From the NCBI RefSeq assembly GCF_009914755.1, contig NC_060947.1: DNA of 64,000 nt, one strand, 5' to 3'. The position numbers were made by a program, and so were the translations under genes. This document shows positions 17,390 to 59,311 of the stretch, piece after piece. Every line of letters starts with the position of its first letter. The first letter of the stretch is position 1. The notes beneath the pieces were generated by a model, which saw nothing but the letters and a program-made list of their open reading frames with translations, searched no databases and was not told the origin of the DNA. This stretch comes from the human T2T-CHM13v2.0 reference genome, Homo sapiens.

Positions 17390-17755
17390 TGTTGTCTGTC
17401 ATATGTGGGAGCTAAAAATTTTGATCTAATGGAGTAGAATTTTGGTGACCAGAGGCTGGGAACAGGGGGTGGGTGGGATGAAGCGAAGTTGGTTAATGGG
17501 TACATACAATTAAGTAAAAGGAATAACTTCTATTTGATAGCACAGTAGGGTGACTAATGGTAACAATAAATTATCATATATTTCAAAATGGCTAGAAGGG
17601 AAGATTTGAAATGTTCCCAGCACAAATAAATGATAAATGTTTGAGGTGATGGATATCCTAAATACCCTGATTTAGTCATTGTCCTTTGTATACATATATC
17701 AAAGTGTCACATGTACCCCATAAATATGTACAACAATGTATCAATAAAAAAGAAA
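17388..17755 (+). mobile_element. L1MA 3' end
   Basis: L1MA 3' UTR (atgtttgaggtgatggatatcctaaataccctgattt...cataaatatgtaca) with an A-rich tail. Confidence 0.8.
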
Positions 17756-17784
17756 TAAGTAAACAAAATACAATCTAATTTACA

Positions 17785-18305
17785 TTGGTGTATGTATACA
17801 CAATGGAATACTATTCAGTCATATAAAAGAATGAAATCCCATCATTTGAGGCAACATGTATGGGCTTCAGATGTGTGAGCCTGGAGGACATTAAGTGAAA
17901 TAATCCAGACACAGAAAGATAAATACCGAATGTTCTCATTGATATGTGGAAGCTTAAAGCTTTTATTTCATAGAAGTAGAGAGTGGAATCGAGATTAGTA
18001 GAGTCTGGGAAGGGTGGGGGATGAACAGGTAGAGTTTAGCTAATGGATACAAAATTAAGACTAAATAAGAGGAATAATCTCTAGTCGTCTATTTAGCACT
18101 GTAGGGTGACTATAGTTAACAATAATCTATTGTATATTTTCAAATAGCTATAAAAGAGGATTTTGAACGTTTCCAACACAAAGAAATGCTAAATGTTTGA
18201 GGTGGTGGATATGCTGATTATCCTGATTTGATCATTACAAGTTGTGTATGTGTATCAAAATATCACACTGTACCCTGTAAATATGTACAATTATTATGTA
18301 TGAAT
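17785..18305 (+). mobile_element. second, tandem L1MA 3' end
   Basis: caatggaatactattcagtcatataaaagaatgaaatcc...atgtttgaggtggtggatatgctgattatcctgatttgatc; followed by (CA)n at ~18317-18349. Confidence 0.8.
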
Positions 18306-19166: not shown

Positions 19167-19184
19167 GTGGCGCCCCCTGGACAG
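19167..19184 (-). promoter_or_regulatory. CTCF/BORIS-like motif upstream of the PAGE-like exon 1
   Basis: Reverse complement reads TGTCCAGGGGGCGCCAC (AGGGGGCGC core). A GC box lies at 19355-19364. Confidence 0.5.
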
Positions 19185-19449
19185 GGTAGGAAGGTGGGCC
19201 ATAGAGGGGAGGTGGATCAGCTCAGAAAAGGGTGAGTTGTGAAAGGAGACACTATCTGAAGTATTTGAGTCCTGGAGGCATATGAAACTGCCCACAGATA
19301 ACTGATTCTGGAGTTTTTAGTGGGGACCTGGGAAGGGGCAGGGTGGAGTAGGATGGGGCGGGGCACTGCAGTCTAAGAGGCAAGAGCCGGCCTCAGTGCA
19401 CATGTTTGCTGGGTGTCTTCCCGTCTGCCCCTTCGCACTGCGTGGTGAA

Positions 19450-19522
19450 TGCCGCCAAGCTGCGCGGGTGCTGGTTACATTCCTACCGTCTGGACTCTTT
19501 CTGGATGACTGAGACACAGCTG
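19450..19522 (+). pseudogene. PAGE/XAGE-like non-coding exon 1
   Basis: ttcctaccgtctggactctttctggatgactgagacacagctg|ataggtcc resembles GAGE/XAGE exon 1 (cctgccgtccggactctttt..ctactgaga..g|gtaggtcc). Donor GT>AT. XAGE-like intron 1 follows. Confidence 0.75.
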
Positions 19523-19879
19523 ATAGGTCCATAGGTCAGTCCTCCCAGGAGTTTAAGTGTCAGTGAAGTGTCAGGTGGAGTTAGCAGGCTTTGGGCAGGT
19601 CAGGCAGTGTGGTAGGTGGCTTCACAGCGGGAAGGGCCTGGAGGTCATTGTTCTTTTAAGAGGTGGCTATTCTGCCGCCAGCCTTGTCGTTGTGGGACAG
19701 GGGAGGAAAGTGGGTCATGGAGGGGAGGAAGGTCAGCAGAAGATGAGGTGAGTTTTGGAGGAGGACATTATTTGAGGCATCTGAGCCTTTGAGGCTATGA
19801 AACCGCACACAGAGGATGGATTCCGGAGTCTTTAGTGGGGAACTGGGAGAGAGGGTGGGACAGACTGGTGCACCACAGC

Positions 19880-20604
19880 TGCCATGAATGGTGACAAGTT
19901 GGACATAACCAGGTCCACATGTGCTTGTGCCTTTCCACAATATCAGGCTTTTATTGATGCTAATTCAGTCGTAAAAGCCACAAGCTACACGGAGTTCCTA
20001 AGGAGGCAGTTCTCCTTAGCACTTATCGTTCACCTGGTAGTTAGAGCAGCAGGCACACAAACTCAAGCCACTCCACAAGTCAGTCAGTATTGCAAACCAT
20101 ACATAACAGTATGCTAAATCAATTTATAAGTGTTATAAGTTAAACATTCCACAACAAAGTAACACTTTTCATCAAAGTAAAACTTTTTCATTGAGAGGAA
20201 AAAGAGGACAAAGGGTTAAGGAACCAGTCCAGGGGGGGTGAAGAAGACAAAAAGAGTCCTGGTCTGGGCTGAGTGGTCCATGGGTCTTGCAAGGAAGTCT
20301 TTGACGTGGCAGAGCCTTTGGCAGCAAATGCCAAGTTCTTGTCATGATTGATTGCAAGAAGGTGTCAGTTAAGACAGATGTTTGAAACTGCTGAAGGCCT
20401 AATCTTTTATAGTCACAGGGTCCTCTGGTAAGAGCTGATCGTGGAAGAGTGCTTGTTTGTGTCCTTATCTGGTTGGATGCAGTCTTCATGTTTTATTTGT
20501 TTATTAAACAAAACATGCTATTATTGTTGGCAAAGTGCCCTATGAAATATAAAATGGAGTATTTTTCTAAGATGGTGTTAGTTATGTCAAGGGTGCTCTA
20601 TACA
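19880..20604 (-). mobile_element. 3' LTR, LTR47-like, ~725 bp
   Basis: Minus strand begins TGTATAGAGCACCCTTGACATAACTAACACCATCTTAG (LTR47-like) and ends TCATGGCA. AATAAA at ~19950. Preceded by PPT-like aaaatcttggagtagat (20605-20621). Confidence 0.85.
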
Positions 20605-21084
20605 ATCTACTCCAAGATTTTAGTAATCATAATGCAAACAATGTTTGAGGAAGGGGTTACAAAAATAAAAAATGACAAGTCACCATGGGAATTAATTTCC
20701 TCTTGGTAACTTGTTTACAATTTTGTGTTACAAAGGCTGAAAACGCAGATCTTAAGTATATGGTAAGCAAAGAGGATGTTTACAATGAAGATGACAACGT
20801 TCTGTAAATGTTCACAGATATATTTAGACCAATTCCAGAGTCCAGTTTTTAATATATTGATTGGGTTCCAGTCTGACCATGAGCCTTCATAAGGGGTATG
20901 GCTAAAAGTCTTCTTAATCATTTGGAAGAAGATGCATCTTCTGTGTAAGCCATCTAGTTTGAATGCTATTTTATTTGTGTTTAGTATTGCTAGTCCATGT
21001 GTTACTACCTCAGTGGTGTGTTTTAATTGTGCTAATTCTGTTTGGAATGTGTCATGAACTTGTTGAAGTTCCTTAGAGCTTCCT

Positions 21085-21465
21085 TGTGAAAGAGGAAAAG
21101 TTCCCTTATCCCCTCACAGGGCATGTGATGTGGGTGTGGCTTGCTTCTTCAGTGCCTGCTGCTCAAACCTCTAGGGGGAGCATGCAGACAGGCATGTTGT
21201 GGGGCTCTGACCCCAAGGCAGTGTCTAGGGGTGAATGCTTACAGCTCCTGAAGCCCCAGTGGGAGTGTGTTACAAGGTGCTCTTTTAGTTTAGCCATCTG
21301 TAGGCAGCTTGTGTTAGCTCAATTAGACTCCCTACCTTATCGCGAGGACAGAGGGCTTTCTGTATGCCAGGATTTCTTGCCTTGGTGTACTGGAAGAATC
21401 AGATCACATGTGGGTTTGGAGAATGAATGCAATGTTTTATTGAGTGGAAGTTCTCAGCAGATGGA
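21085..21465 (-). mobile_element. LTR1/LTR27/LTR28-type ERV1 LTR 3' fragment
   Basis: gaaaagttcccttatcccctcacagggc...aaacctctagggggagcatgcagacagg...gttttattgagtgg, recalled as the antisense end of HUERS-associated LTRs. Confidence 0.65.
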
Positions 21466-21983
21466 TGTTGCAGGAAGTCAGGGACCCCAAACGGAGGGAC
21501 TGGCTGAAGCCACGGCAGAAGAACGTAAATTGTGAAGATTTCATGGATATTTATTGGTTCCCCAAATTAATACTTTTATAATTTCTTATGCCTGTCTTTA
21601 CTGCAATCTCTGAACATAAATTGTGAAGATTTCATGGACATTTATTACTTCTCCAATCAATAATCTTATAATTTCCTATGCCTGTCTTTACTTTAATCTC
21701 TTAATCCTGTCATCTTTGTAAGCTGAAGATGTATGTCACCTCAGGACCCTGTGATGATTGCGTTATCTGCACACATTGTTTGAAAAGCACGTGTGTTTGA
21801 ACAATATGAAATCTGGGCACCTTGAAAAGAACAGGATAACAGCGATTTTCAGGGAACAAGGAAGATAACCATAAAGTCTGACTGCCTGTGAGGCCGGGCA
21901 GAACAGAGTCATATTTCTCTTCTTTCAGAAAGTGAATAGGAGAAATATCGCTGAATTATTTTCTCAGCAAGGAATAACCCTGG
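21466..21983 (+). mobile_element. MER11 (HERV-K11/HML-8) LTR 5' portion
   Basis: tgttgcaggaagtcagggaccccaaacggagggactggctgaagcc and the internal repeat aaattgtgaagatttcatgga. Confidence 0.88.
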
Positions 21984-22336
21984 TAAATGCATATCTGATT
22001 GCCTTCTTTAGAGAGGCTCATCAGAAACTCAAAAGAATGCAACCATTTATTTGTCTCTTATCTACCTATGACCTGGAAGTCTCCTCCCTGCTTCGAGTTG
22101 TCCAGCCTTTGCTTCGAGTTGTCCCGCCTTTTCCAGACTGAACCAATGTTCATCTTACATATGTTGATTGATGTTGCATGTCCCCCTAAAATATATAAAA
22201 CCAAACTGTGCTCTGACCACCTTGGGGACATGTCATCAGGACCTCCTGAGGCTGTGTCACAGGCATGTGTGCTCAGCCTTGGCAAAATAAACTTTCTAAA
22301 TTAACTGAGACCTGTCTCAGATATTCAGGGTTCACA
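21984..22336 (+). mobile_element. MER4A-type LTR 3' portion
   Basis: taaatgcatatctgattgcc...aaaataaactttctaaattaactgagacctgtctcagatattcagggttcaca. Confidence 0.82.
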
Positions 22337-25300
22337 GTTATAATAGGTCAGTGTGTTGTTCCTCTCTAAGCTTATTATCTAATTGAAGTTTCATAAGTCT
22401 AGAGTCATTGTGGGGATTTTCGTGATGCTGATAGTTGAGTAATCTAGTTTAGGAACTTTGTCCTGACAGGTAGAGTATATAGTGTTTGATCATTGGAATA
22501 TTAATTCTTTTTGTATAAAATAACCATCAATAAATAGTGGTCTTTCTAAGGCAGTTATATGTAGATTATGTCTTATCTTTCTGTGTAATTGCCATTGTGT
22601 CTTATGCCATTGAGTCTCCTCCTCTTAATTCAAGTAGATTTAATATACATTGCCCTGAATCCTGATGCTTTGGATGTATCCAATTTAACTATAGACATTT
22701 TGTCCCAATTTTCTGTGAATAATTTTCCTGATGTGTATAATGTTCCTTATGTCATTCCAAGTCTGAGTTAGTAAAATACTTAGCCTAATACACTGTGTTT
22801 GCAGCAAGTTTTTCACCATAAAGTTTCTTAATGTAAATAGGTTAGTTTTTAGGTGTTTAACTTGTGATCAATATTGTAATTGAATTCCTTTTGGGATTCT
22901 GGGAGGTCGTGTGTATGAGTCATCATTGACTATATCTCGTTAATTGCCTATGAGATAGATGAAAGTATAGATGTGGTAGTTGTTTGCAGGAGTTACGTTT
23001 ATGTTCATAGGTCTGTATTAACTTCCTAAATTTTTGCTTCTTGTATTCCTGAAATGACTGAGTTTGAAATAATTCCAATTGCTGCAAATAGTTGTGGTGG
23101 TTTTCTTAGATGATATTTATCTAGTGAAGGTAAATTTGGTAAAATGAACTGCTTGTCATATCCTTGTCCCTCAAATTACATAACTTGTGGTTTGATGTAT
23201 GTGACTTTAAGTTCTTTTTTGAAAAATATTTTGACTCTCCTAGGTGCTGGTTTGTAAATTAATCTTAATGGGTTAATTAGGATAGGTTCAACTAAATTTG
23301 GTTTTCATAATTTAGATAGAGGGTTTGTTATTCCTTTGGTACACTGTGGTGTCCAGTGGTGTGTTCCTAAGCAATGTGTCAGTCCAGCATCCTCTGCGAA
23401 TTATGCATGGCCCAAGGTTCTGGGGTTTAACATAGCATTTTGCAAAAGAGATATCTCTAGCTACAAATACAGGTAAGTGGGAGTCTAGTTTGGCTATATT
23501 TTGATAAATAGGATGTTGGACTGACCATATAACTTTATTCTATGATCCATCAAATGGCTGAATCATGAAGAAAAAGTAATTTGACATACCTGAGTCTATT
23601 TTTGTGACTTTATCCATATTTATTTTGGTTCCTAGTGTTTCCCACCAGTTAATTGACTTAAATTGTGTATTGTTTCTATCTACATCTTCAAAATTAAAGT
23701 TTACATCATCCTGAATTACCAGTGGATACATTGTAAAAATAACTTGATTTTGTATATACTTAGTTTTCCTGGTAAATTTGTCTAATATAGTTATGTCTCT
23801 TGGTTCATTTCCTGTAAAGAATGTGCCAATAACCTCTGCTGTTTTGTAGGTCAGTGTGAATGGTCCAAGTACTAAGAGTGAGTTAGATAATAGCAGATTG
23901 TATATATCTGGTCTGTGAGTAGATGTGAATATTAATTGTTCCCATTTTGTTTGTTGTAATTTATCAAAAATAACTGTTTCTAATGTCCAGTTTCTAATGT
24001 CCATGGGTTTCTAGAAGATGTCGACATCCAGCAATCAGTAAATTTAGTAGGGATTTTCTATGTCATTGTATCTATTGTGATGACTGGGAACTAGTGTGGT
24101 TTTTGTGGTTGTGTCCAACATAAGCCTGCTTTGGTTTCTGTCACATTCCACCATAGAGTGGACTTTCCAGTTATGATAACATATCTGTCTACATTCTCTA
24201 TAAACTCTTTGCTTATTGTGTAAAGGTAGTTTTGATATATTGTAGCCAAGTTTGCCATTTAATGTTGTAAATTTAGCATGTGTTTTATTATGCCAAAGTC
24301 TGAATTGTGCTGTGTCTGTTGGTTTGTTTTGTTTTGTAAAGCCTGTTGATCTTGGAACGTGTAACCATGTTAGTAAGCAACTTATAGTGTAGAATGGGCA
24401 AGGATAAGGTTTTCATCCGTGGGATAATGAAATGTAGCTTTAATATATGTAAAGTTAAGGTTAAAGCATATTAATGTTGGTTGTCCCTCAAAATGTATAT
24501 CTTGTTGGGTAGTGTTGATTCTATTTTTTATCTTTATAAGTTCCTTATTTGTGGAGGGCAAGTATAAGTATACTTGTATTCAAGACAAGCTTTATCTACA
24601 TACATTGTTTTAGTGTGTGTTTCAAAGGTAGTGTGTGTAAAGTGATAGTCAGCATTAGTTAAGATTACTGGGTGTCATCTATGTTTTCAATATAATTCTG
24701 CCAGTGAGAATTTTTTAGCCTTATTAAAGAATTGTTACTCCAGCTCTCTTTTGTCTAATAAAAAGAAAAAAGAAGAATTGTGAGACTGTCAAATAATTTT
24801 GGCTTTTTGCGTAATAATCATAAGATGAACAGGGTGGGTGAAGGCAAAATTTCCAAAAAACAGCAAGTTAGGAAAGTTAATTAGATGATAGTTATAGTAT
24901 GTCTTATCCTCTTCTGTTGTTATTATATCATAATCTAATGGATATCCTAGTGGCATTGACACTTTTTCCTGTGGGGGTCTGATATATGGGTGTAAGATGA
25001 AGTGGTTGGTTTTGTAGCTATATTTAGTCTTGTGTCATCCCTTGAATCTACTTCATAATCATAATGTTCATTTCCTTCAAGTCCAGATTGGTACCAGAAT
25101 TCATACCAACTATTAACAAATGACTTGTAGGAGTGTCGTATCATATCCAAGCATGTCATGTGAGATCTTCCAACATATGGTTCTATCTGTGGTACTATGA
25201 TTGGGGATTGGTATGATATAGCGCTTCTTATGTAATGAACTGTTTTGATTGGCATGTCTGTTTCTATTAGCATTTCTCTACCTATTATGTGAGCCATCCA

Positions 25301-25698
25301 TGGTTTGAGATGTTATTGAATGCTTCATTGTAGCTGCATAAGTTGGGGTGTCACATTTAGTCATGTCATTTATGCATTCTTCTAAAGTATGTTTAGGAAT
25401 ATGCGCAAAGATTCTATAAAGATACAATGATTGGAAGTGTGTGTAAAAGCTAAAAGCTCTTCAGGCATTGCTTTGGGTCAAATGAATATGAACAAAATAG
25501 TCTAATTGAAGCTCTAAGTATTCTTTTATCAGTCCCTTGACTTTCTAACAATTGTTCAAAAATGATATATTTTCATGAAGTATATATTGCGGAATTTGTT
25601 CTGGTAATCGTGTGATTTTAGGTGCTGTATGAGTTGGCACTGTTGGATATGTATGTGTTTGAGGCTCAGAAATTTTAATGGTTACTTTAGGAATAAAC

Positions 25699-25707
25699 AG
25701 TAGTAGC

Positions 25708-25747
<40 letters not shown>
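25699..25747. repeat. (TAG/ACT)n microsatellite inside the env-like region
   Basis: agtagtagcagtagtagt... run; reads as 13 Thr then ATT in the env frame. Confidence 0.9.
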
Positions 25748-26649
25748 TCTGTTATTTCCCTTCTATATCTCCTAACATATTTTAAGCTATTTGCATCAAT
25801 CTTATGTTTGCTATTAATTATCAGATGTATAGGCATTAAATATAGCACTGAAAACAAACTAAGATATAATAATCTATGTCATCCTAATATTTCTCTAAGT
25901 AGTATAGTCAAAGATTGCTTCCAGTAGTAGTATTGCTGCTGGGTTAGGTTGGGGTAGAACAAAGTAAGGTAGTTCTATGGGGTCTGTCCTCTCTTATTAA
26001 GCAGTTTAGCAATGCAACTTATATAATAGGTTAGTAGCCAAGCAAGACTTATGCAGTCATTGGGGTGTACACTTTCAACTAAACCTTCAATAGCTCCTAA
26101 TGCTGCAGTTAGTTCATAAACGTAAGGAGCAGAAAGGTGGCAGTGGCGCCTAGATTCTACAAAGTCTGGTCTGAAATTCCAGTCCATGCCTGCCTGTATG
26201 GGCCAGTCTGCTTGAGCTAATTCCTGAAGGAAATCTGGTGAAGGGGCTCTGAAAGCTATAGGTGGCGAACATGAGGCTGAAGCTTAAAAGGAAGGAGGGC
26301 AAGGCGGGATATACATGGATGATGGAGATCCTGGAGAGGCTAAGTCCATATGCTGGGGATGCATTATAGCTGTCAGTCTGCAAATTATTAATCAAATAAT
26401 ATACTTAACAAGCAGATAGTGAAATTTGTAAATTTTCTGCTGTGAGGGGTGTGTGTGCTTGTGTTAGTTTGATTTATCTGGTTACAGTCTCCCTGGTGGC
26501 AATATAAGTAATAACAAGGCAGTAAAGTTACTATGATGGCTAATATGAGGTGAATGAGAAAGTTGATAAGACCAGTTGAGAAGCTACACAAATTTGTAGC
26601 CATCTTGATGTCCTAAGTGAGTAAAGTATTTAATTATTCCAGTGATAGC

Positions 26650-30239
<3,590 letters not shown>

Positions 30240-30240
<1 letters not shown>

Positions 30241-32100
30241 TTCATACCCAGGGGGTTTCTCATTTGTTGAGAAACATTTTCTTGCAACATTTTTCTGTTG
30301 TTGTTGCTGTTTTTGACATTGTGAGTTTGGCCCTGGACCTCGGGAGGTCCATTATTTTGGACCTTATTTTGGTATCTGGCTGGTGGCCTTAGATGGCCCT
30401 GTTGCCAGTGTTGGAAATAAGAACTTGGAGTCACAAAGAAAACGAGCACTCGAACAAAGGATTTCTCAGCAAGGTAAATTTACTTCTGCAGAAGGGTGCT
30501 GCTTGCACCTCTGGCCACTACGAGAGCACACTGAACAAAGGAGGGAAGGGGTTTTTATCCCTAACACACTCCCTACCTCTGTGTCACTCCCCCATGGGCT
30601 GGGGTCAGACCGCACAATCTAAGCTGACTTGATTGGCTATTTGTGAATATTTTCCCAAATAAGGGAAGGGAAGGGGGATGTGAGTTACAGGCTGGGACTG
30701 GTGGTTTTGGCGGGAAGAATAGTTGCAGTTGCAGAGTGGGTAACCAAGGGAACAGGTGTGAATTATTGATTAGAACTGGCTGGAAGGTTGTTTACTGTAA
30801 CTAGGGGCAAGGAGGCACAAAGAATGAGGAAGTTAGGCTTTGAAAATAGAGAACAAAGAACAAAGAAGTTGACCAAGCTGACTTTTTGAAGAGGAACTTA
30901 CTGTACCTAACACCAGTTTGGTCCTTGTGGCCTTAGTTGCCAGTTATTTTGCCTGGGTTGCCAACTTGTCTGCCTTGGTTTATTTTTCCAAGGTCCTCCA
31001 GGTCTGTTTTGAATAAACATTCAGACTTATGTATTAAATGTAAAGAATTTTGGTGCCTTCCTGAGATTATCTCTTGGTGTTTTTTTAAATCAGGTTTGCC
31101 ATAAATGTTACCTTGTGAGTTCCTGATAATTCGGCAGAAAGTTGAAAATTTTCTAGTATACTTTCTATGGTTCTTCATGCTGAGAGAGAATTAATGTAGG
31201 AGACTTTTAGGTTAGGTGGTGCTCCTATAAGTGCTCTTTCAATTTCATTTGTAGCTGGAATTTCAGATGGAATGGTATATTGATTATATCCATCATTTAT
31301 AATTCCTAAGATAGATAATTTTCTTGTATCCTTTTGTGCCTGTGTTAGATCAGTCCATTTAAGTCCATCACCAAATTTTGTTGGGTTTAAATATTGGGTA
31401 GATAGATATCAGGCTAATGTAATCCAGTCCCAGATGGATAGGACACATGTTGGATAATTTGTTGTTAGTTCTAATAATTTCTGATTTAGTGATGGGTTTT
31501 CTGCTAATGTTTTGATCTGATGCATTTCTGTGCCTGATAGTGCTGTGGTGTTTGCTTCATTATTGCATAATGGAAGGAGTCAGTCTGCATCTGTGGTCTG
31601 TCTTTGGCAAAAATTTATTCTTAGTTTTTGTAATTCTGCTGTGGTGTATTCTCTGTCCTCACTGATGTCCTGAGGTCTGCCATTTCCACTGTTATAATCT
31701 ATAACTCTTTTTGTAGTTATTATAGGTCTTGCTGCATATATCCCACCCACCTCTGGGATCATTATATTCTCCTAGGTCCACTAGTTGGGGGTCCTTAGGA
31801 CCCAGGGGTTCCTCCTTAAAAGTTACATCTGAAAGGGATTTACTTTTCCTTAAAATTCTGTGAGCTAGCTCTTTGGCTTTCTGAGGACCCCTGTATATCT
31901 GTGAGCTACTTTGCATTAAAAGTGCAGGAATTTCTTCAAAAGCCTAGCTCTTGGGAGCATTGAAATGTAAGCTCAGAGTTACATTTTCGAATCTTGGGAA
32001 GAGGCTTGTCAGACACATTGTTTGCTTTCTGCTGAGATAAGGAATGTATCACTCTGCCAGAGTATGACTTTTTACAGATTATTAAATAAAGTTGTGTATG
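30240..32100 (-). pseudogene. gag: gag remnant, HERV-S/ERV-L-like
   Basis: REYTTAELQKLRINFCQRQ..LLPLCNNEANTTALSGTEMHQIKTLAENPSL matches the class III Gag pattern RxYTxxEL..RQ..WLLRLWDxGA..EM..L..PSL. Boundaries approximate. Confidence 0.7.
30409..30912 (-). mobile_element. LTR10-family (HERV-I group) solo LTR inserted in gag
   Basis: Minus strand TGTTAGGTACAGTAAGTTCCTCTTCAAA...CTTATTTCCAACA. 4-bp TSD CCAG at 30405-30408 and 30913-30916. Confidence 0.85.
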
Positions 32101-32768
32101 TCTCAAAAAAAGTGCAGGGATTTCTTCTCTGGGGGCTCTGGTAATTAAAGGCTTAACATTTTGTCAGGTCCCTCAAGTCTGACCATACATCCTTGGGGGA
32201 TCCTACAGGGACTCTTTCTGACTTCCAACTCTGTTGGGTACCAAGGACTCTCAACACTAAGTACTGTATTTGGGCGATGAGCCCTCTGGCATGCCTGCTT
32301 AATTTTCTTAACTAGAACCCACATTATGCCATATTAGTAGCTACTTTATATAGTTTCTTAATAATATTTCAATTTCCCACCTTAACCGACTGTCTGAGTG
32401 GAGGTTATGTAATAATTGACTTTCTTTTGGCCAAATTAAAAATTTGTTTTGCCAGTCAGCATCCCATAAATTGAGACCTGCTTGATGTGAGCATTCCTGG
32501 CTCCCCCAGCTTCCTAGCTTGGCATCAACCAAGACCTTGTCAGCCGTTGGATCTTCACAACTTGAGCAAGTTGTCTTATCACCCAAGGTTTTCCTCAAGT
32601 AGCCAGGCTTTCAAGGTGAGGCGAGATTATGTCTGCTGTCAGAGAGCATGGCAGTTTGTTTTGTCAAATGGCGTGATTTCCAATGGAAGTTTTAGTGGGG
32701 GCTTTGGCCTTAAAATTGAGTACACCAATTATGCCAAGTAAGCCAACTGTGCCAGTTGTGCCCAGTAA

Positions 32769-32781
32769 GCTGACTATGCCA
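32769..32781 (-). other. primer binding site, tRNA-Ser-like
   Basis: TGGCATAGTCAGC, 3 nt after the 5' LTR; equals TGGCGTAGTCGGC (complement of the tRNA-Ser 3' end) after two CpG-type transitions. Confidence 0.75.
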
Positions 32782-32784
32782 GCT

Positions 32785-33334
32785 TATCATGAGAAGTACT
32801 GGATTAGAAATAACCAGGTCCATGCATGCTTGTGTCTTTCAACAATATCAGGTTTTTATTGATGCTATCCAATCACAAAAGCCATGAACTACATGGAGTT
32901 CCCAAGGAGACGCTTCCCCTTAGTTCTTCCTGTTCACTTAGTAGTCAGAGCCACAGGCACACAAGCTTAAGCCACTCCACAAGTCAGTCAGTATTGCAAA
33001 CCATACATAACAGTATGCCAAATCAATATGCAAGTGTTATAGGTTAAACACTCCACAACAAACAAAGTAAAATTTACCATCAAGAAGAAAAAGAGATAAG
33101 ATAAAGGATTAAGGAATCTGTCTAGGTGGAATGAAGAAGACAAAAGGAATCCTGGTCTGGGCCAGCCAGTCAATTGGTCTTGCAAGGAAGAGTGTTTGTG
33201 GTGGCAGAGCCTTTGGCAGCAGATGCCAAGTTCTTATCATAAATGACTGCAAGAAGGTATCAGTGAAGATGGCTGTTTTGAGCTGCTGAAGGTGTAAACT
33301 TTTATAGTCACAGAGTCCTCTGGTGAGAACTGAT
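32785..33334 (-). mobile_element. 5' LTR, LTR47-like, U3 start deleted
   Basis: Colinear with 19880-20438, e.g. shared aagccactccacaagtcagtcagtattgcaaaccatacataacagtatgc. Homology stops at 33334, about 165 bp short of the full LTR. Confidence 0.88.
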
Positions 33335-33431: not shown

Positions 33432-33780
33432 GTGCGTACTTTAACATTTGATATTTTCTATTAGCTGAAATTTCTTTTTGTAATAGTGTTGTTGAACTAG
33501 TATAGATACACTGATAAAGATCTTCCATGCTGATAAAAAATGATCATGGCATCTCATGAAGGAAAGACTAATCTAAGAGGATTATGTTCTGGCTTTGCCT
33601 AGATGAATGATCTTGTGTTTCCCAGATTTTGCCCATGACTCCCTCCTCATGCTTATTGATAACAGATTGCACACATCTATCCCAACAGAGGTTAAAATGA
33701 CTTCTAAAACCCTTGAGGGTGTCTCTGTCTTAGAGTAACCTCTCCATGGGAAGAGTAACTTTATGAAGAATAAGTATATG

Positions 33781-35163
33781 TTTTGTGGGATCTATGGGGT
33801 GTTGCTTTTCTGGCCAGAAACCTCTGCGGCTGGTGGCATCTTTGCCCAAGTTCTTGTCTTGTGTCCAGGAAGAAGGAGGTAGGCAGACAAGTGGAGAGTG
33901 AGCAAGATGAAAAAGAGCTTTATTGAGTGTTAGAACAGCTCAGAGGAGACCTGCAGTGTGTAGCTCCTCTCTGTACGTAGTTCCTCCTATCATACAGTGT
34001 TCAGCTCTCAGCAAAGAGGAGGCCTGGAGTGAGTGGCTCCTCTCTGCAGACAGGTCGTCCTGATGAGTGTTCACCTCTCAGCATAGAGGGTGGCTCCTTT
34101 CTGCAGCTTGTCATCCTGTTGTCTGCAGCTCTCAGCAGAGAGAAGGCTCTGAAGAGGGTAGCTCCCCTCTGCAACTGGTCGTCCTGAAGTCTGCTGCTCT
34201 GGCAGAATCTGGGGTTTGTATGGGCTTCAGGGAGAAAGTGCATGCTGATTGGTCCATGGGCAGCCGTGGGCAGGCCTGGTAAAAAGCACCATGAGTTCCC
34301 CCTCCAGTCCGCAGGAATGGCAGCCTGGATCCCAGGCTTCAGGCCTTTCCGGGCCTAAAGGTGGCGTTTCACCAGGGACCCCCCTTCTGCCCAGAAGCCT
34401 GTCGGACTCCTACCACCATTCATGGCTCCCAGACTGTTTGTGCCAAGGGCTGCCTGCAGGCCAGTGCTGAACTTCCTTCCGCCCCCCGACTCCATTTCCC
34501 TCCTGTGTTCATTGGTGCCCAAAGCCTGGGGGACTCAGGCAAAAGGTGTCTGGCAGGTCAGCACTACCCTGAGCGTGCATCCACCCAGCCGGGCTGTGAC
34601 AGTGCCCAGGCGGCCCCAACCTTGCTCCACAATCAGAGCGGGCACTGGGAGTAGGGAGAGGCCAGGCAGTGGGAACAGGCACTTCTGAGCGGGGGAACAG
34701 GGGCCGTCCAGGGCTCCCAAGAGCACAGATATGCCTAGGTCCAAAGCCGAGCTCGGCAGGCTGCAGCTGCACCTGGGCAGCTCCCGTCCCACCAACTTGG
34801 AAGAGGCGAGGCTCCTGCTTGTCCCTGGCTCCCACTTGTCCTTGGCTCCCACCAGTTTCATGCAGTGTGCAGCCCCGGCCATGCCTCTGAGATCGGAGTG
34901 GACGCTGACAGTGCGGAGAAACCAGGCAGTAGGAGCAGGCACTTCCAAACCTGCCGGGGAGGCACTTCCAAACCTGCCGGGGGGCGCCTTTCCTTGGCCC
35001 CCTAGAGCCCAGAGACACCCAGATCTGGAGCCACAGTAGAGCAGCTGCAGCCATACAGGGGGCAGGGCTCCTGCCTGCTCTGTGGAACAGGAGGCCGGGC
35101 CGTGCTGCAGCCAGTATGATGGCAGCTGCTGCTCCAGATGGGCCACCCCTGCCCCTGCCATCA
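33781..35163 (-). mobile_element. MER52-family solo LTR in pseudogene intron 2
   Basis: Minus strand starts TGATGGCAGGGGCAGGGGTGGCCCATCTGGAGCAGCAGCTGCC; GC-rich; TSD tatg at 33777-33780 and 35164-35167. Confidence 0.85.
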
Positions 35164-35312
35164 TATGGAATCATGTTGGAGAAATGTCTTTAGACTTACT
35201 TAGGATTAGAAATATCTATATATTCTGTATACTTATATTATTGACATGTATTAATAACAAAACTTTTTATTTGCGCACACACGCGTGCGGGCACACATAC
35301 ATACAACGCTAG

Positions 35313-35361
35313 TCCCAGGAGCCAAGTGAGAGAGAAGATCAGGGTGCAGCTGAGATTTAAG
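35313..35361 (+). pseudogene. PAGE/XAGE-like exon 3, internally deleted
   Basis: ag|SQEPS-EREDQGAAEI*|gtgctgggaagg; compare XAGE2/3 ..REDDQGAAEIQ with the same donor context; preceded by a CA-rich acceptor region. Confidence 0.85.
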
Positions 35362-36479
35362 GTGCTGGGAAGGAAAAGAAGGAATGTCTGTGGTGGAGAG
35401 AGAGGAGGCCTATATGTTCATCATGCATTATGCCATAACTAGTAACAGGAGGAAAGAAAACATTAAGAAAGGATCTCAAACATTTCCTGAAAGTTGGCTG
35501 GAAAAGTGAAGAGTATAGTATGCAGTTTTGTGCAGTCCCTCACTATAAAGAATTTCCCTTTTTCCTTGAGACTTATTTTCTGTGTTTGAAAATACCTTTC
35601 TCATCAGTGTTCTATATTAGCAAATCCAAGAAAACAATGTTTAATATTAGTCATAAAATTGTGCACTATCTCTTAGTTATTGCATCAAAAACATAAGCAT
35701 CTTTTAATAAAACGTATAGCGTGCCAAGTCAACACACTTATAACACCTAGGATAAGGCCTGTTTACATGGCGTTTTTAACTCCTTTCTAAATGAGACAAC
35801 TCAGACTCTGAGATCGTGTCTTACTAAAGAGCACTTGACTGGTTGGGATAGATTGGTACTTCATTCCCTAAATAGTATTTTTCCCCTCTCTGTTTTTGTA
35901 AGTAAAAAGTGAATGGTTTTGCTTAAAATGCTTAATGATCAAATGTGTCTGCACTGTAAGGTAGCTCAGTACTGGCTCAGGAAAAGACACAGTTCAATGA
36001 AGAGACTCCAGAAAAGAGCTCAGTGAATGATGGCCATTGTCCTTTGGTTGATATTTTTTGCAGTAAATTTGGTAAAAGCTGGACAATTCAAGGTACTGAC
36101 CTATAAGTAGTTATATCACTATGACTTTAAGAGGCTTTTTAAAAGTTGTTTAAATACTTTCATAATTAGAAAAATCAAAAGTATCATAAGATTATCATGA
36201 AACAGAGATTATTTCCTCAAAATATAGTATTTCCAAACTAAACATTTACATAATTTGGTCCATGGATTATTTTAGCAATTCACTGTTAAGGAGTTTCCAA
36301 AACATGACTGACAACAATGCCCATTAATTTCTTCCCACCCTACTTCCTTATTCTCACTTCAAGACAGTAAATTCACTGTTAGTCACAATTAATTTTGCTA
36401 TTATTTCTGGTACTTTGTTTCACATAGGATTCATTTATGAAATGTTACTTATAGGGCTTTTGGACCTAAATATGACTTT

Positions 36480-40082: not shown

Positions 40083-42576
40083 GCACATTGTTCATTAAGA
40101 TGCAAAATTATGTGAATTTGTTTTCTACAAGATTATATATAATAATATACTGATAATGACACTGCTACTTCGATAACAGAGTTCAATTACAAATGGTCTT
40201 TGAAAGGTAATTCTGATCCCAAATGCCTGGTTACCTGACTAATACACTGTCATATACAGAAACAAATTGGATCAAAGCCATATTGAGTCATAAAATATGC
40301 AACCATTTTCTTACCTTTGAGTATAACAGTTAACAATTTTCAGATTCTTTTCTTATTTCTACTTTTAACAAACACAGAATGCATTTGTAATACCAGTTTG
40401 TGTGAAATATGCTGAGCCCTGAAGGAGATTGTAGTACTAGCTCTGCTATAATTTGTGAGATTCTGGATGAATCCCATAAATTATACACCTATCTTTGTGC
40501 TTTTTGAAAATAATGAATTCAAACCAGATGTTTTAAAATCAGTTTCGATACTGATTTCTGTATTCTCTGGTTCTTTTGGATAGAATACAAAGATATTCTG
40601 TTTTCCATGGTTGGTTTATCATAAAATATCAGCTTGAGTCAAGGTATACTATCTGAATTGAGATTTGATTGCTCCTAAGAAAATGAGTGTGCACTCTGCT
40701 TAATGTTTGTTTTTGTTTATGGAGACCTGAATGACTGTTCTTGGATCTTATCAACTTTTGAATTCTCTGGCTCTTAAAGAATAATTGCTCTTTAAGTTCT
40801 TCCCCCAGTGAAGCTTCAAATGACCAAATAATCAAATGGCAAGAGATAGTCTAGTTTCTAGTTTCTGTCACTGATGAGTTAGGGAGAGTGCATGGAGGTC
40901 AGTAAGGCCCAAGGTAGGTGTAAGATATCTGTACTAAGCACTCTCCCTACTCTACTCTCTGTCTTTATGAGCTACTATTTCTAATTAGACTATAGACGTG
41001 TATATGATATAATCACCTCTATATATCATATGTTACATATTACAAGTTTCTGCCTTGAGACATCCATTGATAGGATCTGAGATTCAAAGACCATAACATA
41101 GTAATTCACGAGTAGTCAACATAAGTATGTGTTGCATGTTTTCCAAATTGCTGACTGTTCATTACAGAAGATTCTGCATTTAAAGGAAGCATTTGATGTT
41201 TAGGGAAAAAATTACCTTGCATTAGTCTTCTAAATGTTTTTGCTCTACACTGCTGAACCATTCCATCAGATGACTTAAATTAAAAGATAGTTTTCAGACC
41301 ACTTCAAGCAGCCATCTGAATATGGCTAAAATGCACTCTTAGGAAGATCATAGCCTTTAAATGTGTATGTTATTAAAACAGATAAATTACATGAACATCC
41401 AATATAAAAATAATGATACAGTAGCAACAGAACAAACCTAAGGGGAAAGGAAAGAGGTACTTAATAAAAGACATGTATGAATTATTAGTAAAAAGAAAAG
41501 TAATCCAACTAGTAAATTTTAAAAAGATTACTCTTTTTAGAAATAGCTATGAGGTGGAGGCAAGATGGCCAAATAGGAACAGCTCCAGTCTAGAGCTCCC
41601 AGCGTGAGTGATGCAGAAGACAGGGATTTCTGCATTTCCAACTGAGGTACCGGGATCATCTCACTGGGGATTGTCAGACAGTGGGTGCAGGACAGCGGGT
41701 GCAGTGCACCCAGCTTGAGCCAAAGCAGGGTGAGGCATCGCCTCAACTGGGAAGCGCAAGGGGCCAGGGAATTCCCTTTCCTAGTCAAAGAAAGGGGTGA
41801 CAGACGGCACCTGGAAAATCGGGTCACTCCCACCCTAATACTGCGCTTTTCCAATGGTTGTAGCAAACGGCACACCAGGAGATTATATCCTGCACATGGC
41901 TCGGAGGGTCCTATGCCCACGGAGCCTCACTCATTGCCAGCACAGCAGTCTGAGATCAAACCACAAGGCAGCAGTGAGGCTGGGGGAGGGGCACCAACCA
42001 TTTCCGAAGCTTGAGTAGGTAAACAAAGCGGCCAGGAAGGTCAAACTGGGTGGAGCCCACCACAGCTCAAGGAGGCCTGCCTGCCTCTGTAGACTCCACC
42101 TCTGGGGGCAGGGCATAGCCAAACAAAAGGCAGCAGAATCCTCTGCAAACTTAAATGTCCCTATCTGACAGCTTTGAAGAGAGTAGTGGTTCTCCCAACA
42201 TGCACTAGGAGATCTGAGAACGGACAGACTGCCTCCTCAAGTGGATCCCTGACCCCCGAGTAGCCCTACTGGGAGGCACCCCCCAGTAGGGGCAGACTGA
42301 CACCTCACACGGCCGGGTACTCTTCTGAGACAAAGCTCCCACAGGAACAATCAGGCAGCTACATTTGCTGCTCACCGGTATTCACTGTTCTGCAGCCTCT
42401 GCTGCTGATACCCAGGCAAACGGGGCCTGGAGTGGACCTCCAGCAAACTCCAACAGACCTGCAGCTGAGGGTCCTGACTGTTAGAAGGAAAACTAACAAA
42501 CAGAAAGGACATCCACACCAAAACCCCATCTGTACGTCACCATCATCAAAGACCAAAGGTAGATAAAACCACAAAG

Positions 42577-43594
42577 ATGGCGAAAAAAACAGAGCAGAAA
42601 AACTGGAAACTCTAAAAATCTGAGTGCCTCTCCTCCTCCAAAGGAACGCAGCTCCTCACCAGCAACAGAACAAAGCTGGACGGAGAATGACTTTGATGAG
42701 TTGAGAGAAGAAGGCTTCAGATGATCAAACTACTCTGAGCTAAAGGAGGAAGTTCGAACCCATGGCAAAGAAGTTAAAAACCTTGAAAAAAAATTAGACG
42801 AATGGCTAACTAGAATAACCAATGCAGAGAAGTCCGTAAAGCAGCTGATGGAGCTGAAAACCAAGGCTCAAGAACTACGTGACGAATGCACAAACCTCAG
42901 TAGACGATTCGATCAACTGGAAGAAAGGGTATCAGTGATGGAAGATCAAATGAATGAAATGAAGCAAGAAGAGAAGTTTAGAGAAAAAAGAATAAAAAGA
43001 AACGACAAAGCCTCCAAGAAATATGGGACTATGTGAAAAGACCAAATCTATGTCTGATTGGTGTACCTGAAAGTGATGGGGAGAAAGGAACCAAGATGGA
43101 AAACACTCTGCAGGATATTATCCAGGAGAACTTCCGCAATCTAGCAAGGCAGGCCAACATTCAAATTCAGGAAATACAGAGAACGCCACAAAGATACTCC
43201 TTGAGAAGAGCAACTCCAAGACACATAATTGTCAGATTCACCAAAGTTGAAATGCAGGAAAAAAATGTTAAGGGCAGCCAGAGAGAAAGGTCGGGTTACA
43301 CACAAAGGGAAGCCCATCAGACTAACAGCTGCTCTCTCGGCAGAAACTCTACAAGCCAGAAGAGAGTGGGGGCCAATATACAACATTCTTAAAGAAAAGA
43401 ATTTTCAACCCAGAATTTCATATCCAGCCAAACTAAGCTTCATAAGTGAAGGAGAAATAAAATCCTTTACAGACAAGCGAATGCTGAGAGATTTTATCAC
43501 CACCAGGCCTGCCCTAAAAGAGCTCCTAAAGGAAGCATTAAACATGGAAAGGAACAACCAGTACCAGCCACTGCAAAAACATGCCAAATTATAA
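42577..43594 (+). pseudogene. L1 ORF1, frameshifted
   Basis: Fragments MELKTKAQELRDEC.., KRPNLCLIGVPE.., RAAREKGRVTHKGKPIRLT..YQPLQKHAKL in different frames. Confidence 0.92.
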
Positions 43595-43657
43595 AAACCA
43601 TCGAGGCTAGGAAGAAACTGCATCAACTAAAGAGCAAAATAACCAGCTAATATCATA

Positions 43658-47480
<3,823 letters not shown>

Positions 47481-48494
47481 ACAATTGGAACACATGGACC
47501 CAGGTAGGGGTCCATCACACACCAGGGCCTTTTGTGGGGTGGGGGCAGGGGGGAGGGATAGCATTAGGAGATATACCTAATGCTAAATGACGAGTTAATG
47601 GGTGCAGCACACTGACATGGCACATGTATACATATGTAACTAACCTGCACGTTGTGCACATGTACCCTAAAACTTAAAGTATAATAATAATAAAAAACAA
47701 ATAAATAGATAAATAAAAATAAAAAATAAAAGACCTATTACAATTTCTGGCAAAAAAAAATAGCTATGAGTAGAGTATTAAGTCATTTACATAATCTTGA
47801 AAAAAGTGGAAAAAACTCAACATGGAATATGAACAAGATGCTGACAGATATTGAATATATGGTATAATCCAAAGTGAATACATTCTTGAACTCTAATATT
47901 TTCAAAATATGGATGAAATGGTTGATATGCTAGGAAAGCATATAGTCTTTAACATATCCCAGTAATACCTGAATATCTAAGCATCACAAGTACCATGGAA
48001 GAACTTCTGAAATTTGTCAGTTGTTCTTCAAAAATACTGACTTTTAGAAACAAATACTTGGCTTTTGCAGGTATCGTACTCTCTCTATCCATTTCCCTCT
48101 CCCTCTCTCCATTCATTCATTCATTTAATTTGTTTATTTTTCTTTTTTTTTCTTTTTCTTTTCGTTTTTTTTTTGGCCGTACTGTGAGATATGGTATATA
48201 TCTCCACATTTTTTTTATGTTGAAAATGATGGTAGTAACCATATGATGTATTATATTAACTGGAATGCTTTCAAGTGTGAAAAGAAGCACTCCTCGTAAT
48301 TGCAACAGGACTATAGGTGAAAACTCGGGACAAATGGTTATCCTACTTTAACAACTCCAAAAGGGTTATACTAGCCCAGAGAAATATTTTTGCACTTCTG
48401 CAAAATAGAGAAAAGAAGAAATGCAGTGCTGACCTTTCTGTGTTTTTTCACTTATATAATTCCAAATGTAACATTAACCAGTTTTGGTTTTCTG

Positions 48495-56111: not shown

Positions 56112-57861
56112 GTATTATTTTATTATTAGTTTTACTCCTATTGTTACTATAATTTATTTCATTTTTAAAATTACCCTGCAAGGTAGGAGGTAGTCACTAA
56201 AGCTCAGGAGCTATATCTCTTGCTGAACCTCACCAGGAATGAAAGTACTAGTCAAACAGACAAAACTCATGTGTTTTGTAGTATATGTAGCTGAGATAGA
56301 AAGTCAACCTAGTTGTTATCATGAATTCATTTGTTATCATTAAATTATAAATATTCAGCATCGGTAAAGAAAATAATGAAAAATAATCAGTCTCATCAAA
56401 TCTACAAGTATAATGGAAGTCATACTGAATTTAGAGTCCAATGAGATGCGCTTGGTCAGGCAACTGCAGGAAAATGCTGCCAAGTGTCCTCACCCCTGCA
56501 TCCTCGAGGCAGGTGATTAATAGGGGAATCCTGAGACCACTGCAAACATTCTCACATTCACACCTGTTCAAACCTACACATCTGTAACGATTTATGAAGG
56601 GAACAAAAAAATGGCTCTACTTCCCAAGTTTTAGGAGTGGGGATATCATTAGCAACACCTGAGAAATTGTGGCACACCACTGCTTGTACAGGGTCCTTGG
56701 ACATTTAGGTGTCAAGATTTGGTCACCAGAAACACTAGAGAATGTATCAGAATTTGATCTATGTCCTTTGTGACAGAAGCTTTCTAAATGATGAGGTTCA
56801 CGTGTATTTGCTGTTCTATGGATCCCCTTGAATAAGTATATTGCACTGGACATTTTTAAGAGGCACATATTATTTTCAAGTTTTTTGACTTGGGGAATAA
56901 ACCATCTGTAAAATTTACACAGAAATTCAATGGACTACAAACAGCCAAGCTGAAGAAGAACACAGGTGAAGAACTTACAGTACGAAAATCAACACTCATT
57001 ATAAAATACGAGTAATTAATACAGTGATGTATTGACACTAGGATAGTAAAAATAAACCAGTGGAACAGAATAGACTCAAGAAATAGTTCCAGTCATAGAA
57101 AATCACCTGACTTACTACAAAGGAGCCATTGCAACTAAGGGAAGAAAGAATGATTCTTGATCACTGGATACCACATGGAAATTAAATCTTGGGCCTTTGG
57201 TCATATCGGCCACAAAAATCAATTCCTGATGGATCTTTTGACCAAAATTGGTCAAAATATGAAAGTTAAAACAAGCTAGAAGTAGCATAGGAAAATATTC
57301 TTATGACTTCAGAATAGGCATAGTTTAAAAAAAAACAGGACATGATGAGCACTAAGAATAAAAGATCGACAATATATAATTGATTAAAATTAAGATCATC
57401 TGTTCATCTCCAAGGCACCACTGAGAAGATGAAAAAACTAGCCATTGAATGGGAATATGTTAGTTCTAATACATATATCCAAAAAAGGACTCATGGAGAA
57501 TATCTAAGGAACTTCCACAAATGACCAAGAAAAAGGCAGACAATCTAGTAAGAATAGGCAAAAGGCTTGGAAAGCCATTTCACAAAAAAACAATAACCAA
57601 GTAGAAAATAAATATGAATATGTGCTCAATAAGTGTTCAAAATCTTTAGTCATCAGGGAAATACAATTAAAACCACAATAAGATACTACTACATGCTCAC
57701 TATAAAGGTTAAATTGAGAGAGAGGGAGAGGGAGAAAAATCCACTGTTGACAGGGATCTGAAGCAACTGCAGCTGGAGGGCACTCCCACACTGCTTCTGG
57801 AACATAGTTTGTTTCAACCACTTTTGCCATCTGTTTTCTTGTAACACTTAAAGCTAAGCAT

Positions 57862-59254
<1,393 letters not shown>

Positions 59255-59311
59255 AAAGCTAAGCATTTAAAGCTGCATCCCCTATTACAGCAATGCCACT
59301 CCTTAGCTTAT

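What the first reader, a model, noticed from the sequence alone, without database searches (positions are those of the whole stretch)
19880..33334. Near-complete ~11.5 kb class III provirus with a mosaic of HERV-S, ERV-L and spuma-like traits
Seen: two LTRs, Ser-type PBS, gag, PR, RT, RNaseH, IN and ~4.8 kb of additional 3' sequence. Removing the three secondary inserts and restoring the missing U3 gives about 11.5 kb. The sense strand is strongly A-rich. Gag and PBS look HERV-S-like, and RT/RH/IN motifs look ERV-L-like. I saw no dUTPase after IN. Established: canonical HERV-L is much shorter, Leu-primed, dUTPase-positive and env-less. Inference: an under-studied, once-infectious complex class III lineage, for which this locus is a useful reconstruction template.
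Basis: partly seen in the sequence, partly recalled or inferred. Interest (0 to 1): 0.72.

Follow-up and report, generated by a model that had tools for sequence, protein, structure and literature searches.

The report
Unclassified human retrovirus fossil, unusual envelope
This is a broken, old retrovirus insertion on the human X chromosome whose polymerase falls in neither HERV-L nor HERV-S, and whose long 3' end, shared with five sister copies, likely once encoded an envelope (fusion) protein predicted to be unlike the type reported for other human class III retroviruses.

Summary
The provirus is real (minus strand, 19880-33334): two LTRs, Ser-like PBS, RT, RNase H, IN, no dUTPase, 38% A, about 11.4 kb without inserts. 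There are four secondary inserts, not three. It is not a mosaic. Its RT is only 28-37% identical to HERV-L and HERV-S and 27-33% to foamy viruses, and forms its own clade, weakly beside HERV-L/S. Eight sister loci were found; five carry the long 3' region, so it is not filler. The LTR is probably Repbase LTR62, listed in 2018 without an internal sequence; RetroTector left the chr3 sister 'unclassifiable'. The 3' region is a coding remnant with envelope anatomy: Met plus hydrophobic leader, basic site, fusion-peptide-like stretch, long helices, membrane anchor. The post-cleavage part is about 450 codons (gamma-type about 190, foamy about 416, paramyxovirus F1 about 437) and shows no ISD or CX6CC. 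Kinship to F-type or foamy fusogens rests on length and one language-model lead; profile and fold searches did not confirm it. Gag is not detectably HERV-S-like; accessory genes are not shown.

The parts
19880..20604 (-). 3' LTR, about 725 nt, TG...CA; probably Repbase LTR62
   Evidence: name from Vargiu 2016 Table S1 row 3160 by approximate coordinate transfer
20605..20620 (-). purine-rich tract before the 3' LTR (PPT-like)
   Evidence: sequence
20715..21087 (-). C-terminal end of the envelope-like gene: helical stretch, Trp-rich stretch, hydrophobic anchor near 20810-20750, short tail
   Evidence: open frame, hydropathy, same stretch in C4 copy
21088..22336 (+). secondary nested LTR-derived insert (family names LTR1/27-like, MER11-like, MER4-like are recalled only); about 200 nt of the host gene is missing beside it
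   Evidence: absent from C4 and C19 copies
22337..23115 (-). post-cleavage part of the envelope-like gene: basic site near 23110, hydrophobic peptide, long predicted helices; broken by stops and frameshifts
23312..24412 (-). pre-cleavage coding remnant, one frame with 5 stops in 367 codons, 5 sequons, 8 Cys
   Evidence: other frames 22 and 30 stops; shuffles median 26, minimum 12 of 2000
24413..26603 (-). upstream part of the 3' region: Met at 26603 followed by a hydrophobic stretch, further short open frames, a trinucleotide repeat at 25708-25746; part of the same envelope gene or a separate gene
   Evidence: colinear in C7, C19, C15a
27129..27341 (-). integrase core
   Evidence: Pfam rve E 1.3e-5
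27602..27909 (-). secondary Alu insert with target duplication
28090..28350 (-). RNase H
   Evidence: Pfam RNase_H E 2.3e-5
28802..29044 (-). tether (degenerate RNase H)
   Evidence: Pfam RT_RNaseH_2 E 0.03
29321..29917 (-). reverse transcriptase, 198-codon open stretch
29920..30408 (-). region where a protease is expected; not detected by Pfam
   Evidence: position
30409..30912 (.). secondary solo LTR with 4-bp target duplication (MER61-like, recalled)
   Evidence: absent from sister copies; junctions
30913..31936 (-). gag-like coding remnant, matches only its own family
31937..32111 (+). fourth insert: retrocopy of the 3' end of a chr20 transcript, with poly(A) signal, A-tail and long target duplication
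   Evidence: 90% over 171 nt to C20:38376114-38376284
32719..32781 (-). three tandem PBS-like 18-mers, the first Ser-like over 12-13 nt
32785..33334 (-). 5' LTR, U3 start and its target duplication missing

Best explanation
This is a broken provirus of a small human retroviral family, probably the one behind Repbase LTR62, whose reverse transcriptase lies outside HERV-L, HERV-S and foamy viruses and whose 4.6-4.8 kb 3' region likely encoded a large class I fusion envelope that lacks the gamma-type motifs. Shown: LTR-PBS-gag-like-pol-3' region-PPT-LTR order, eight sister loci, 5-bp target duplications at solo LTRs, no dUTPase. Inferred mechanism: an enveloped retrovirus primed by a Ser-type tRNA entered germ cells by means of this envelope (leader, cleavage at a basic site, N-terminal fusion peptide, long coiled coil, C-terminal anchor), integrated roughly 40 or more million years ago, left a few proviruses and many solo LTRs, and has decayed neutrally since. 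Predicted, not shown: the fusion subunit is of the long F-protein/foamy/lokiretrovirus kind.
For: RT: 150 best-scored of 3214 genome candidates split into own family (46-69% identity) and all others (26-35%); 28-37% to 18 HERV-L-type and 6 HERV-S RTs while L versus S is 36-49%; own clade 99-100 support, beside L+S at SH-aLRT 92 or 66/81. IN 30-39% to other ERVs. 5-bp TSD exact in 4 and near in at least 1 of 9 solo-LTR loci read. 3' region colinear in C7, C4, C1, C19, C15a. Stop-poor frame. Met plus hydrophobic stretch after IN seen in window, C7 and C1, hydrophobic stretch also in C19 and C15a. Eight database proteins match the cleavage-site region; P0005 (23% identity, open 155 aa) keeps basic site, hydrophobic peptide and helices and is not encoded in this genome. 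Atlas features of P0005 point to clusters with PF00523 Fusion_gly (0.92; 10% and 23% of members), haemagglutinin and Baculo_F. Model of P0005: short helix then two helices of about 55 residues, pLDDT 66. Post-cleavage length about 449 codons in C4 against gamma 178-197, foamy 412-423, paramyxovirus F1 427-456. No ISD-like match in 170 frames and proteins, no CX6CC in the TM-bearing loci; gamma Env profile finds nothing.
Against: No Pfam envelope family is hit. HMM and hhalign tests against 36 paramyxovirus F, 17 foamy Env and 10 gamma Env sequences are all insignificant; the best of them is the gamma alignment (E 0.015, probability 3%). PDB sequence searches are blank. The pre-cleavage model failed (pLDDT 33) and the P0005 model matches generic coiled coils only. 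The Atlas lead is one source, 4-10 of 100 shuffled proteins reach 0.9, and its first cluster has no family. Some of the eight proteins are copies of this same family (P0008 equals a C4 stretch). Decay could have erased ISD and CX6CC. RT placement beside L+S is weak and family+foamy is not rejected (p-AU 0.138). The LTR62 name rests on an approximate coordinate transfer.
Confidence: 0.7

Rival explanations
1. The 3' region holds two or more genes, an accessory or attachment gene after IN and a shorter envelope, so that the virus was complex.
For: 26603 to 20715 without the insert is about 1,600 codons, far above foamy Env (about 990). The C4 and C1 copies lack most of 26500-24250 but keep the downstream part. 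Several hydrophobic stretches lie in the upstream part.
Against: Only one Met-plus-hydrophobic leader was seen across copies and it lies directly after IN; the two deletions have different ends; no Tas or Bet similarity. Frame continuity cannot be read from single decayed copies.
Confidence: 0.4
2. The element is a mammalian lokiretrovirus or a sister of foamy viruses and not a member of the ERV-L/S clade.
For: Lokiretrovirus Env has signal peptide, basic site, fusion peptide, coiled coil and PF00523 similarity (PMC7947760). Best PDB hits of RT and IN are foamy virus. Family+foamy not rejected.
Against: Best trees put it with HERV-L/S; 5-bp TSD, Ser-like PBS and YIDD-type motif in sister copies fit ERV-L/S; IN scores HERV-L at least as high as foamy (58 against best 55 bits). 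No lokiretrovirus sequence was in the trees.
Confidence: 0.15
3. It is an already catalogued ERV3 family (such as MER76-int, LTR57-int, HERVL32/66/70/74) with an eroded gamma-type envelope.
For: Those families exist and several carry class I envelopes. Their RTs were not in my trees, and Dfam could not be queried.
Against: Vargiu's row for the chr3 sister shows LTR62 and no RepBase match over the six segments where the internal part lies, and is 'Unclassifiable'. The LTR does not match a 9-kb stretch holding the HERV-H that the same table pairs with MER76. TM length and motifs do not fit the gamma type.
Confidence: 0.15
4. It is a recombinant mosaic of HERV-S gag, ERV-L pol and foamy-like 3' genes.
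For: Ser-like PBS and no dUTPase as in HERV-S; RT/IN motifs as in ERV-L.
Against: No segment is close to any of the three; all segments are colinear across sister copies at similar divergence.
Confidence: 0.05

Closest known systems
HERV-S / HERVL18, HERVL32, HERVL66 (env-bearing class III; PMC4724089 passages and supplement rows)
   Same: Class III-like RT, no dUTPase, envelope present, Ser-type PBS start
   Different: RT about 30-35% identical; 11.4 kb against about 5.4-7 kb chains; 38% A against 24-26%; their Env is class I with ISD, this one shows none and has a TM over twice as long
HERV-L / ERV-L (MLT2 LTRs)
   Same: YIDD-type RT motif in sister copies, similar IN motif, 5-bp TSD (ERV-L value recalled)
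   Different: RT about 30% identical, no dUTPase, non-Leu PBS, long envelope-like gene
Foamy viruses (Spumaretrovirinae)
   Same: 11-13 kb, A-rich, long TM subunit (412-423 aa), best PDB hits for RT and IN
   Different: RT outside the foamy clade; no detectable Gag, Env, Tas, Bet similarity; the anchor-bearing gene ends at the PPT with no room for tas/bet
Lokiretroviruses (PMC7947760, first half of text read)
   Same: Envelope anatomy and an F-type lead; dual RNase H
   Different: Reported from lampreys to reptiles, not mammals; RT sister to all retroviruses, whereas this RT leans to ERV-L/S
Repbase LTR62
   Same: Probable identity of the LTR
   Different: Listed among LTRs without characterised internal portion (PMC5753468 Table 4)

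Membership tests
HERV-L | RT nests in the HERV-L clade | tested here: not met
   HERV-L label from abundance and the dUTPase control locus
HERV-L | dUTPase after IN | tested here: not met
   0 of 5 copies; control positive
HERV-L | Leu PBS and no env | tested here: not met
HERV-S | RT nests in the HERV-S clade | tested here: not met
   labels from Vargiu coordinates, approximate transfer
HERV-S | Ser PBS | tested here: inconclusive
   first 12-13 nt agree with HERV-S rows, the rest does not; no tRNA library was searched
HERV-S | class I (gamma-type) TM with ISD and CX6CC | tested here: not met
   decay could hide motifs but not the length
HERV-S | Gag similarity | tested here: inconclusive
   no significant match; decayed copies limit sensitivity, HERV-S versus HERV-L reaches only E 8e-6
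Class III / ERV3 (ERV-L plus ERV-S clade) | RT groups with ERV-L and ERV-S | tested here: inconclusive
   SH-aLRT 92, 66/81
Class III / ERV3 (ERV-L plus ERV-S clade) | 5-bp target duplication (rule recalled) | tested here: met
Foamy viruses | RT inside the foamy clade | tested here: not met
   a sister position is not rejected
Foamy viruses | tas/bet between env and 3' LTR; foamy Env and Gag | tested here: not met
   profiles of 16-17 foamy genomes find Pol only; anchor ends about 110 nt before the LTR
Lokiretroviruses | RT sister to all retroviruses; IN close to CGIN1 | not testable with these tools
   no lokiretrovirus sequence obtained; only 150 of 1853 IN candidates were scored
F-type (subclass Ib) fusion proteins | sequence or fold kinship to paramyxovirus F or foamy Env | tested here: inconclusive
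   Atlas lead and length for; profiles and folds silent
Repbase LTR62 | match to the LTR62 model | tested here: inconclusive
   indirect, by position in Vargiu Table S1; model itself not available

The most novel reading that the evidence does not exclude
The human genome holds an undescribed third deep class III lineage whose envelope is a very large F-type (foamy/lokiretrovirus/paramyxovirus-like) fusion protein: a candidate for the native envelope of the ERV-L/S clade before it was lost or replaced by gamma-type env, with relatives of the same envelope in other hosts.
Probability: 0.4. Interest if true: 0.82.

Novelty: new variant of a known kind. Interest (0 to 1): 0.63.

Why it matters
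Vargiu 2016 states that every class III envelope they studied was class I and that the original HERV-L env, if any, is unidentified. A class III-like family in humans with a long non-gamma fusion subunit would be an exception, would link mammalian ERVs to the foamy/F/lokiretrovirus fusogen group (PMC11468914, PMC7947760), and would give an orphan LTR family its internal sequence. It has no evident function in the host today.

Tried and rejected
Codon-periodicity and indel test between copies: flat everywhere, including the Pol control, so uninformative. The search for homologous proteins: nothing for the pre-cleavage frame or RT at E 1e-15 (threshold too strict); three gypsy-like Pols with the RT alignment, used as outgroup. 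No relative of the RT in viral contigs. AlphaFold of the pre-cleavage part failed; fold searches of the P0005 model gave generic coiled coils, with HIV gp41, BIV Env and a spike HR1 mimic among them at no better rank than unrelated helices. RNase H comparison did not separate foamy from gamma. My first recalled name, MER76, was not supported. Genomic coordinates printed for the minus-strand loci (C1, C11) are wrong; window coordinates and identities there are sound. L041 was dropped from the tree as too short, and 22 of 44 rows were used. PMC3441713's 'LTR62' is an HERV-H label and irrelevant.

Full report
Observation. The element lies on the minus strand. The LTR pair aligns at 80.4% over 547 columns. 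Against other copies the LTR is about 725 nt (19880-20604); the 5' copy (32785-33334) has lost the start of U3. Pfam finds RT, tether, RNase H and IN, no protease and no dUTPase (HERV-L control positive). Without them the interior is 9,954 nt, 37.8% A, and the element 11.4 kb. All genes are broken by stops and frameshifts.

Family. Genome searches found eight sister loci with internal sequence: C7:135.79-135.80 Mb, C4:181.37, C1:248.31-248.32, C15:21.75, C15:22.35, C3:15.11, C19:19.86, C11:130.21, about 66-84% identical to the window; the two C15 loci are 76% identical to each other, so not a recent duplication. The LTR gave 198 candidates, of which 40 were scored and all 40 matched. Counts are lower bounds. 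The 3' region is colinear in 5 of 8 sisters; C4 and C1 lack most of its upstream half, with different ends. Solo LTRs show 5-bp target duplications. LTR divergence is K2P 0.187 over 525 columns, about 37-47 Myr at a recalled rate of 2-2.5e-9 per site per year; the C4 pair is more diverged (77.5%).

Name. Vargiu 2016 Table S1 row 3160 (hg19 chr3:15,145,398-15,161,502) is 'Unclassifiable', shows LTR62 in sense in segments 6-7 and no RepBase match in segments 8-13. With an offset of about 39 kb, taken from recalled assembly shifts and agreeing with the table's pol start, the C3 sister's LTR falls in segment 7 and its interior in segments 8-13. Kojima 2018 lists LTR62 among LTRs with no characterised interior. 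My first recalled guess, MER76, failed a direct check. I put LTR62 at about 75%.

Polymerase. The RT is 26-35% identical to every non-family hit among 150 scored of 3214 candidates, 28-37% (window and C1 copies) to HERV-L and HERV-S, which are 36-49% to each other, and 27-33% to nine foamy viruses. Trees give the family its own clade, beside HERV-L+S at SH-aLRT 92 (44 rows) or 66/81 (22 rows); forcing it with foamy viruses is not rejected (p-AU 0.138). IN is 30-39% to other ERVs. Gag matches only its own family. This is one deep lineage, not a mosaic.

The 3' region. One frame at 23312-24412 has 5 stops in 367 codons against 22 and 30 in the other two and at least 12 in 2000 shuffles; the frame was chosen after looking. 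A Met and hydrophobic stretch follow IN in several copies and a hydrophobic anchor with short tail ends just before the PPT. Near 23110 a basic site precedes a hydrophobic peptide and helical repeats; a search of 1.84 billion proteins returned 8 matches, among them P0005, 23% identical, open, and not encoded in this genome. Others are probably copies of this family and are not independent. Atlas features of P0005 lean to PF00523 Fusion_gly, haemagglutinin and Baculo_F clusters at 0.91-0.92, and its model is a short helix and two long helices. From the basic site to the end is about 449 codons in C4, whose extra 200 nt is confirmed by C19: F1-like (427-456) or foamy-like (412-423), not gamma-like (178-197). 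No ISD-like motif occurs in 170 frames and proteins, and no CX6CC in the TM-bearing loci. Against this: profile tests with 36 F, 17 foamy Env and 10 gamma Env sequences are insignificant, Pfam and PDB are silent, one fold failed and the other is generic. So an envelope gene is likely (about 80%), a non-gamma type likely, an F-type fold only predicted (about 50%), and one gene versus several is open.

Mechanism. Shown: proviral anatomy, multiple independent insertions, decay. Inferred: an enveloped retrovirus, primed by a Ser-type tRNA, entered the germ line through a cleaved class I fusion protein, integrated with 5-bp duplications, and was mostly reduced to solo LTRs.

Literature. Seen: PMC4724089 passages, Table S1 rows and one part, file S2 passages; PMC5753468 passages with Table 4; PMC7947760 parts 1-2 of 4; passages of PMC8278194, PMC13524379, PMC11089739, PMC12287698, PMC3758190, PMC13709493, PMC11468914, PMC3441713. 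Ten searches listed no paper describing this family or a class III mammalian ERV with a non-gamma, non-foamy envelope; LTR62 occurs in 8 papers, 7 listed, 2 opened. Subscription papers, Dfam, current Repbase and unread supplements (ERV catalogues, lokiretrovirus data sets) may describe it. PMC13524379 says a vertebrate survey will be reported elsewhere.

Verdict. Real feature, new variant of a known kind: a probably class III lineage with a known LTR, an apparently undescribed interior and an atypical envelope-like gene. Interest 0.63.

Noticed in passing
window 31937-32111; G000:C20:38376114-38376284: Short retrocopy of an mRNA 3' end from chr20 (90% identity) inside the provirus; the source gene may be NDRG3 (recalled position, not tested). 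It gives an independent minimum age.
   Followed up: partly
window 32719-32781; L028:2050-2120: PBS-like 18-mer in three tandem copies in the chrX and C7 proviruses, single in C3 and C4: two subfamilies.
   Followed up: partly
window 25708-25746: 13-unit trinucleotide repeat expanded from a shorter Thr/Ser-rich stretch in C7; could be a mucin-like segment of the 3' gene.
   Followed up: no
window 17538-18267 and 19179-19848: Two local duplications with 556 and about 516 nt spacing, 73-83% identical, just outside the provirus.
   Followed up: no
window 33780-35200: GC-rich LTR-like repeat (MER52-like, recalled) beyond the truncated 5' LTR, overlapping the RefSeq enhancer 34809-35472.
   Followed up: no
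window 42377-47738 and 57855-59261: L1 elements with ORF2 fragments of 266-330 codons.
   Followed up: no
P0001, P0004, P0005, P0007: Diverged database proteins (23-49% identity) matching the envelope-like region, pointing to related elements outside this family of copies.
   Followed up: partly
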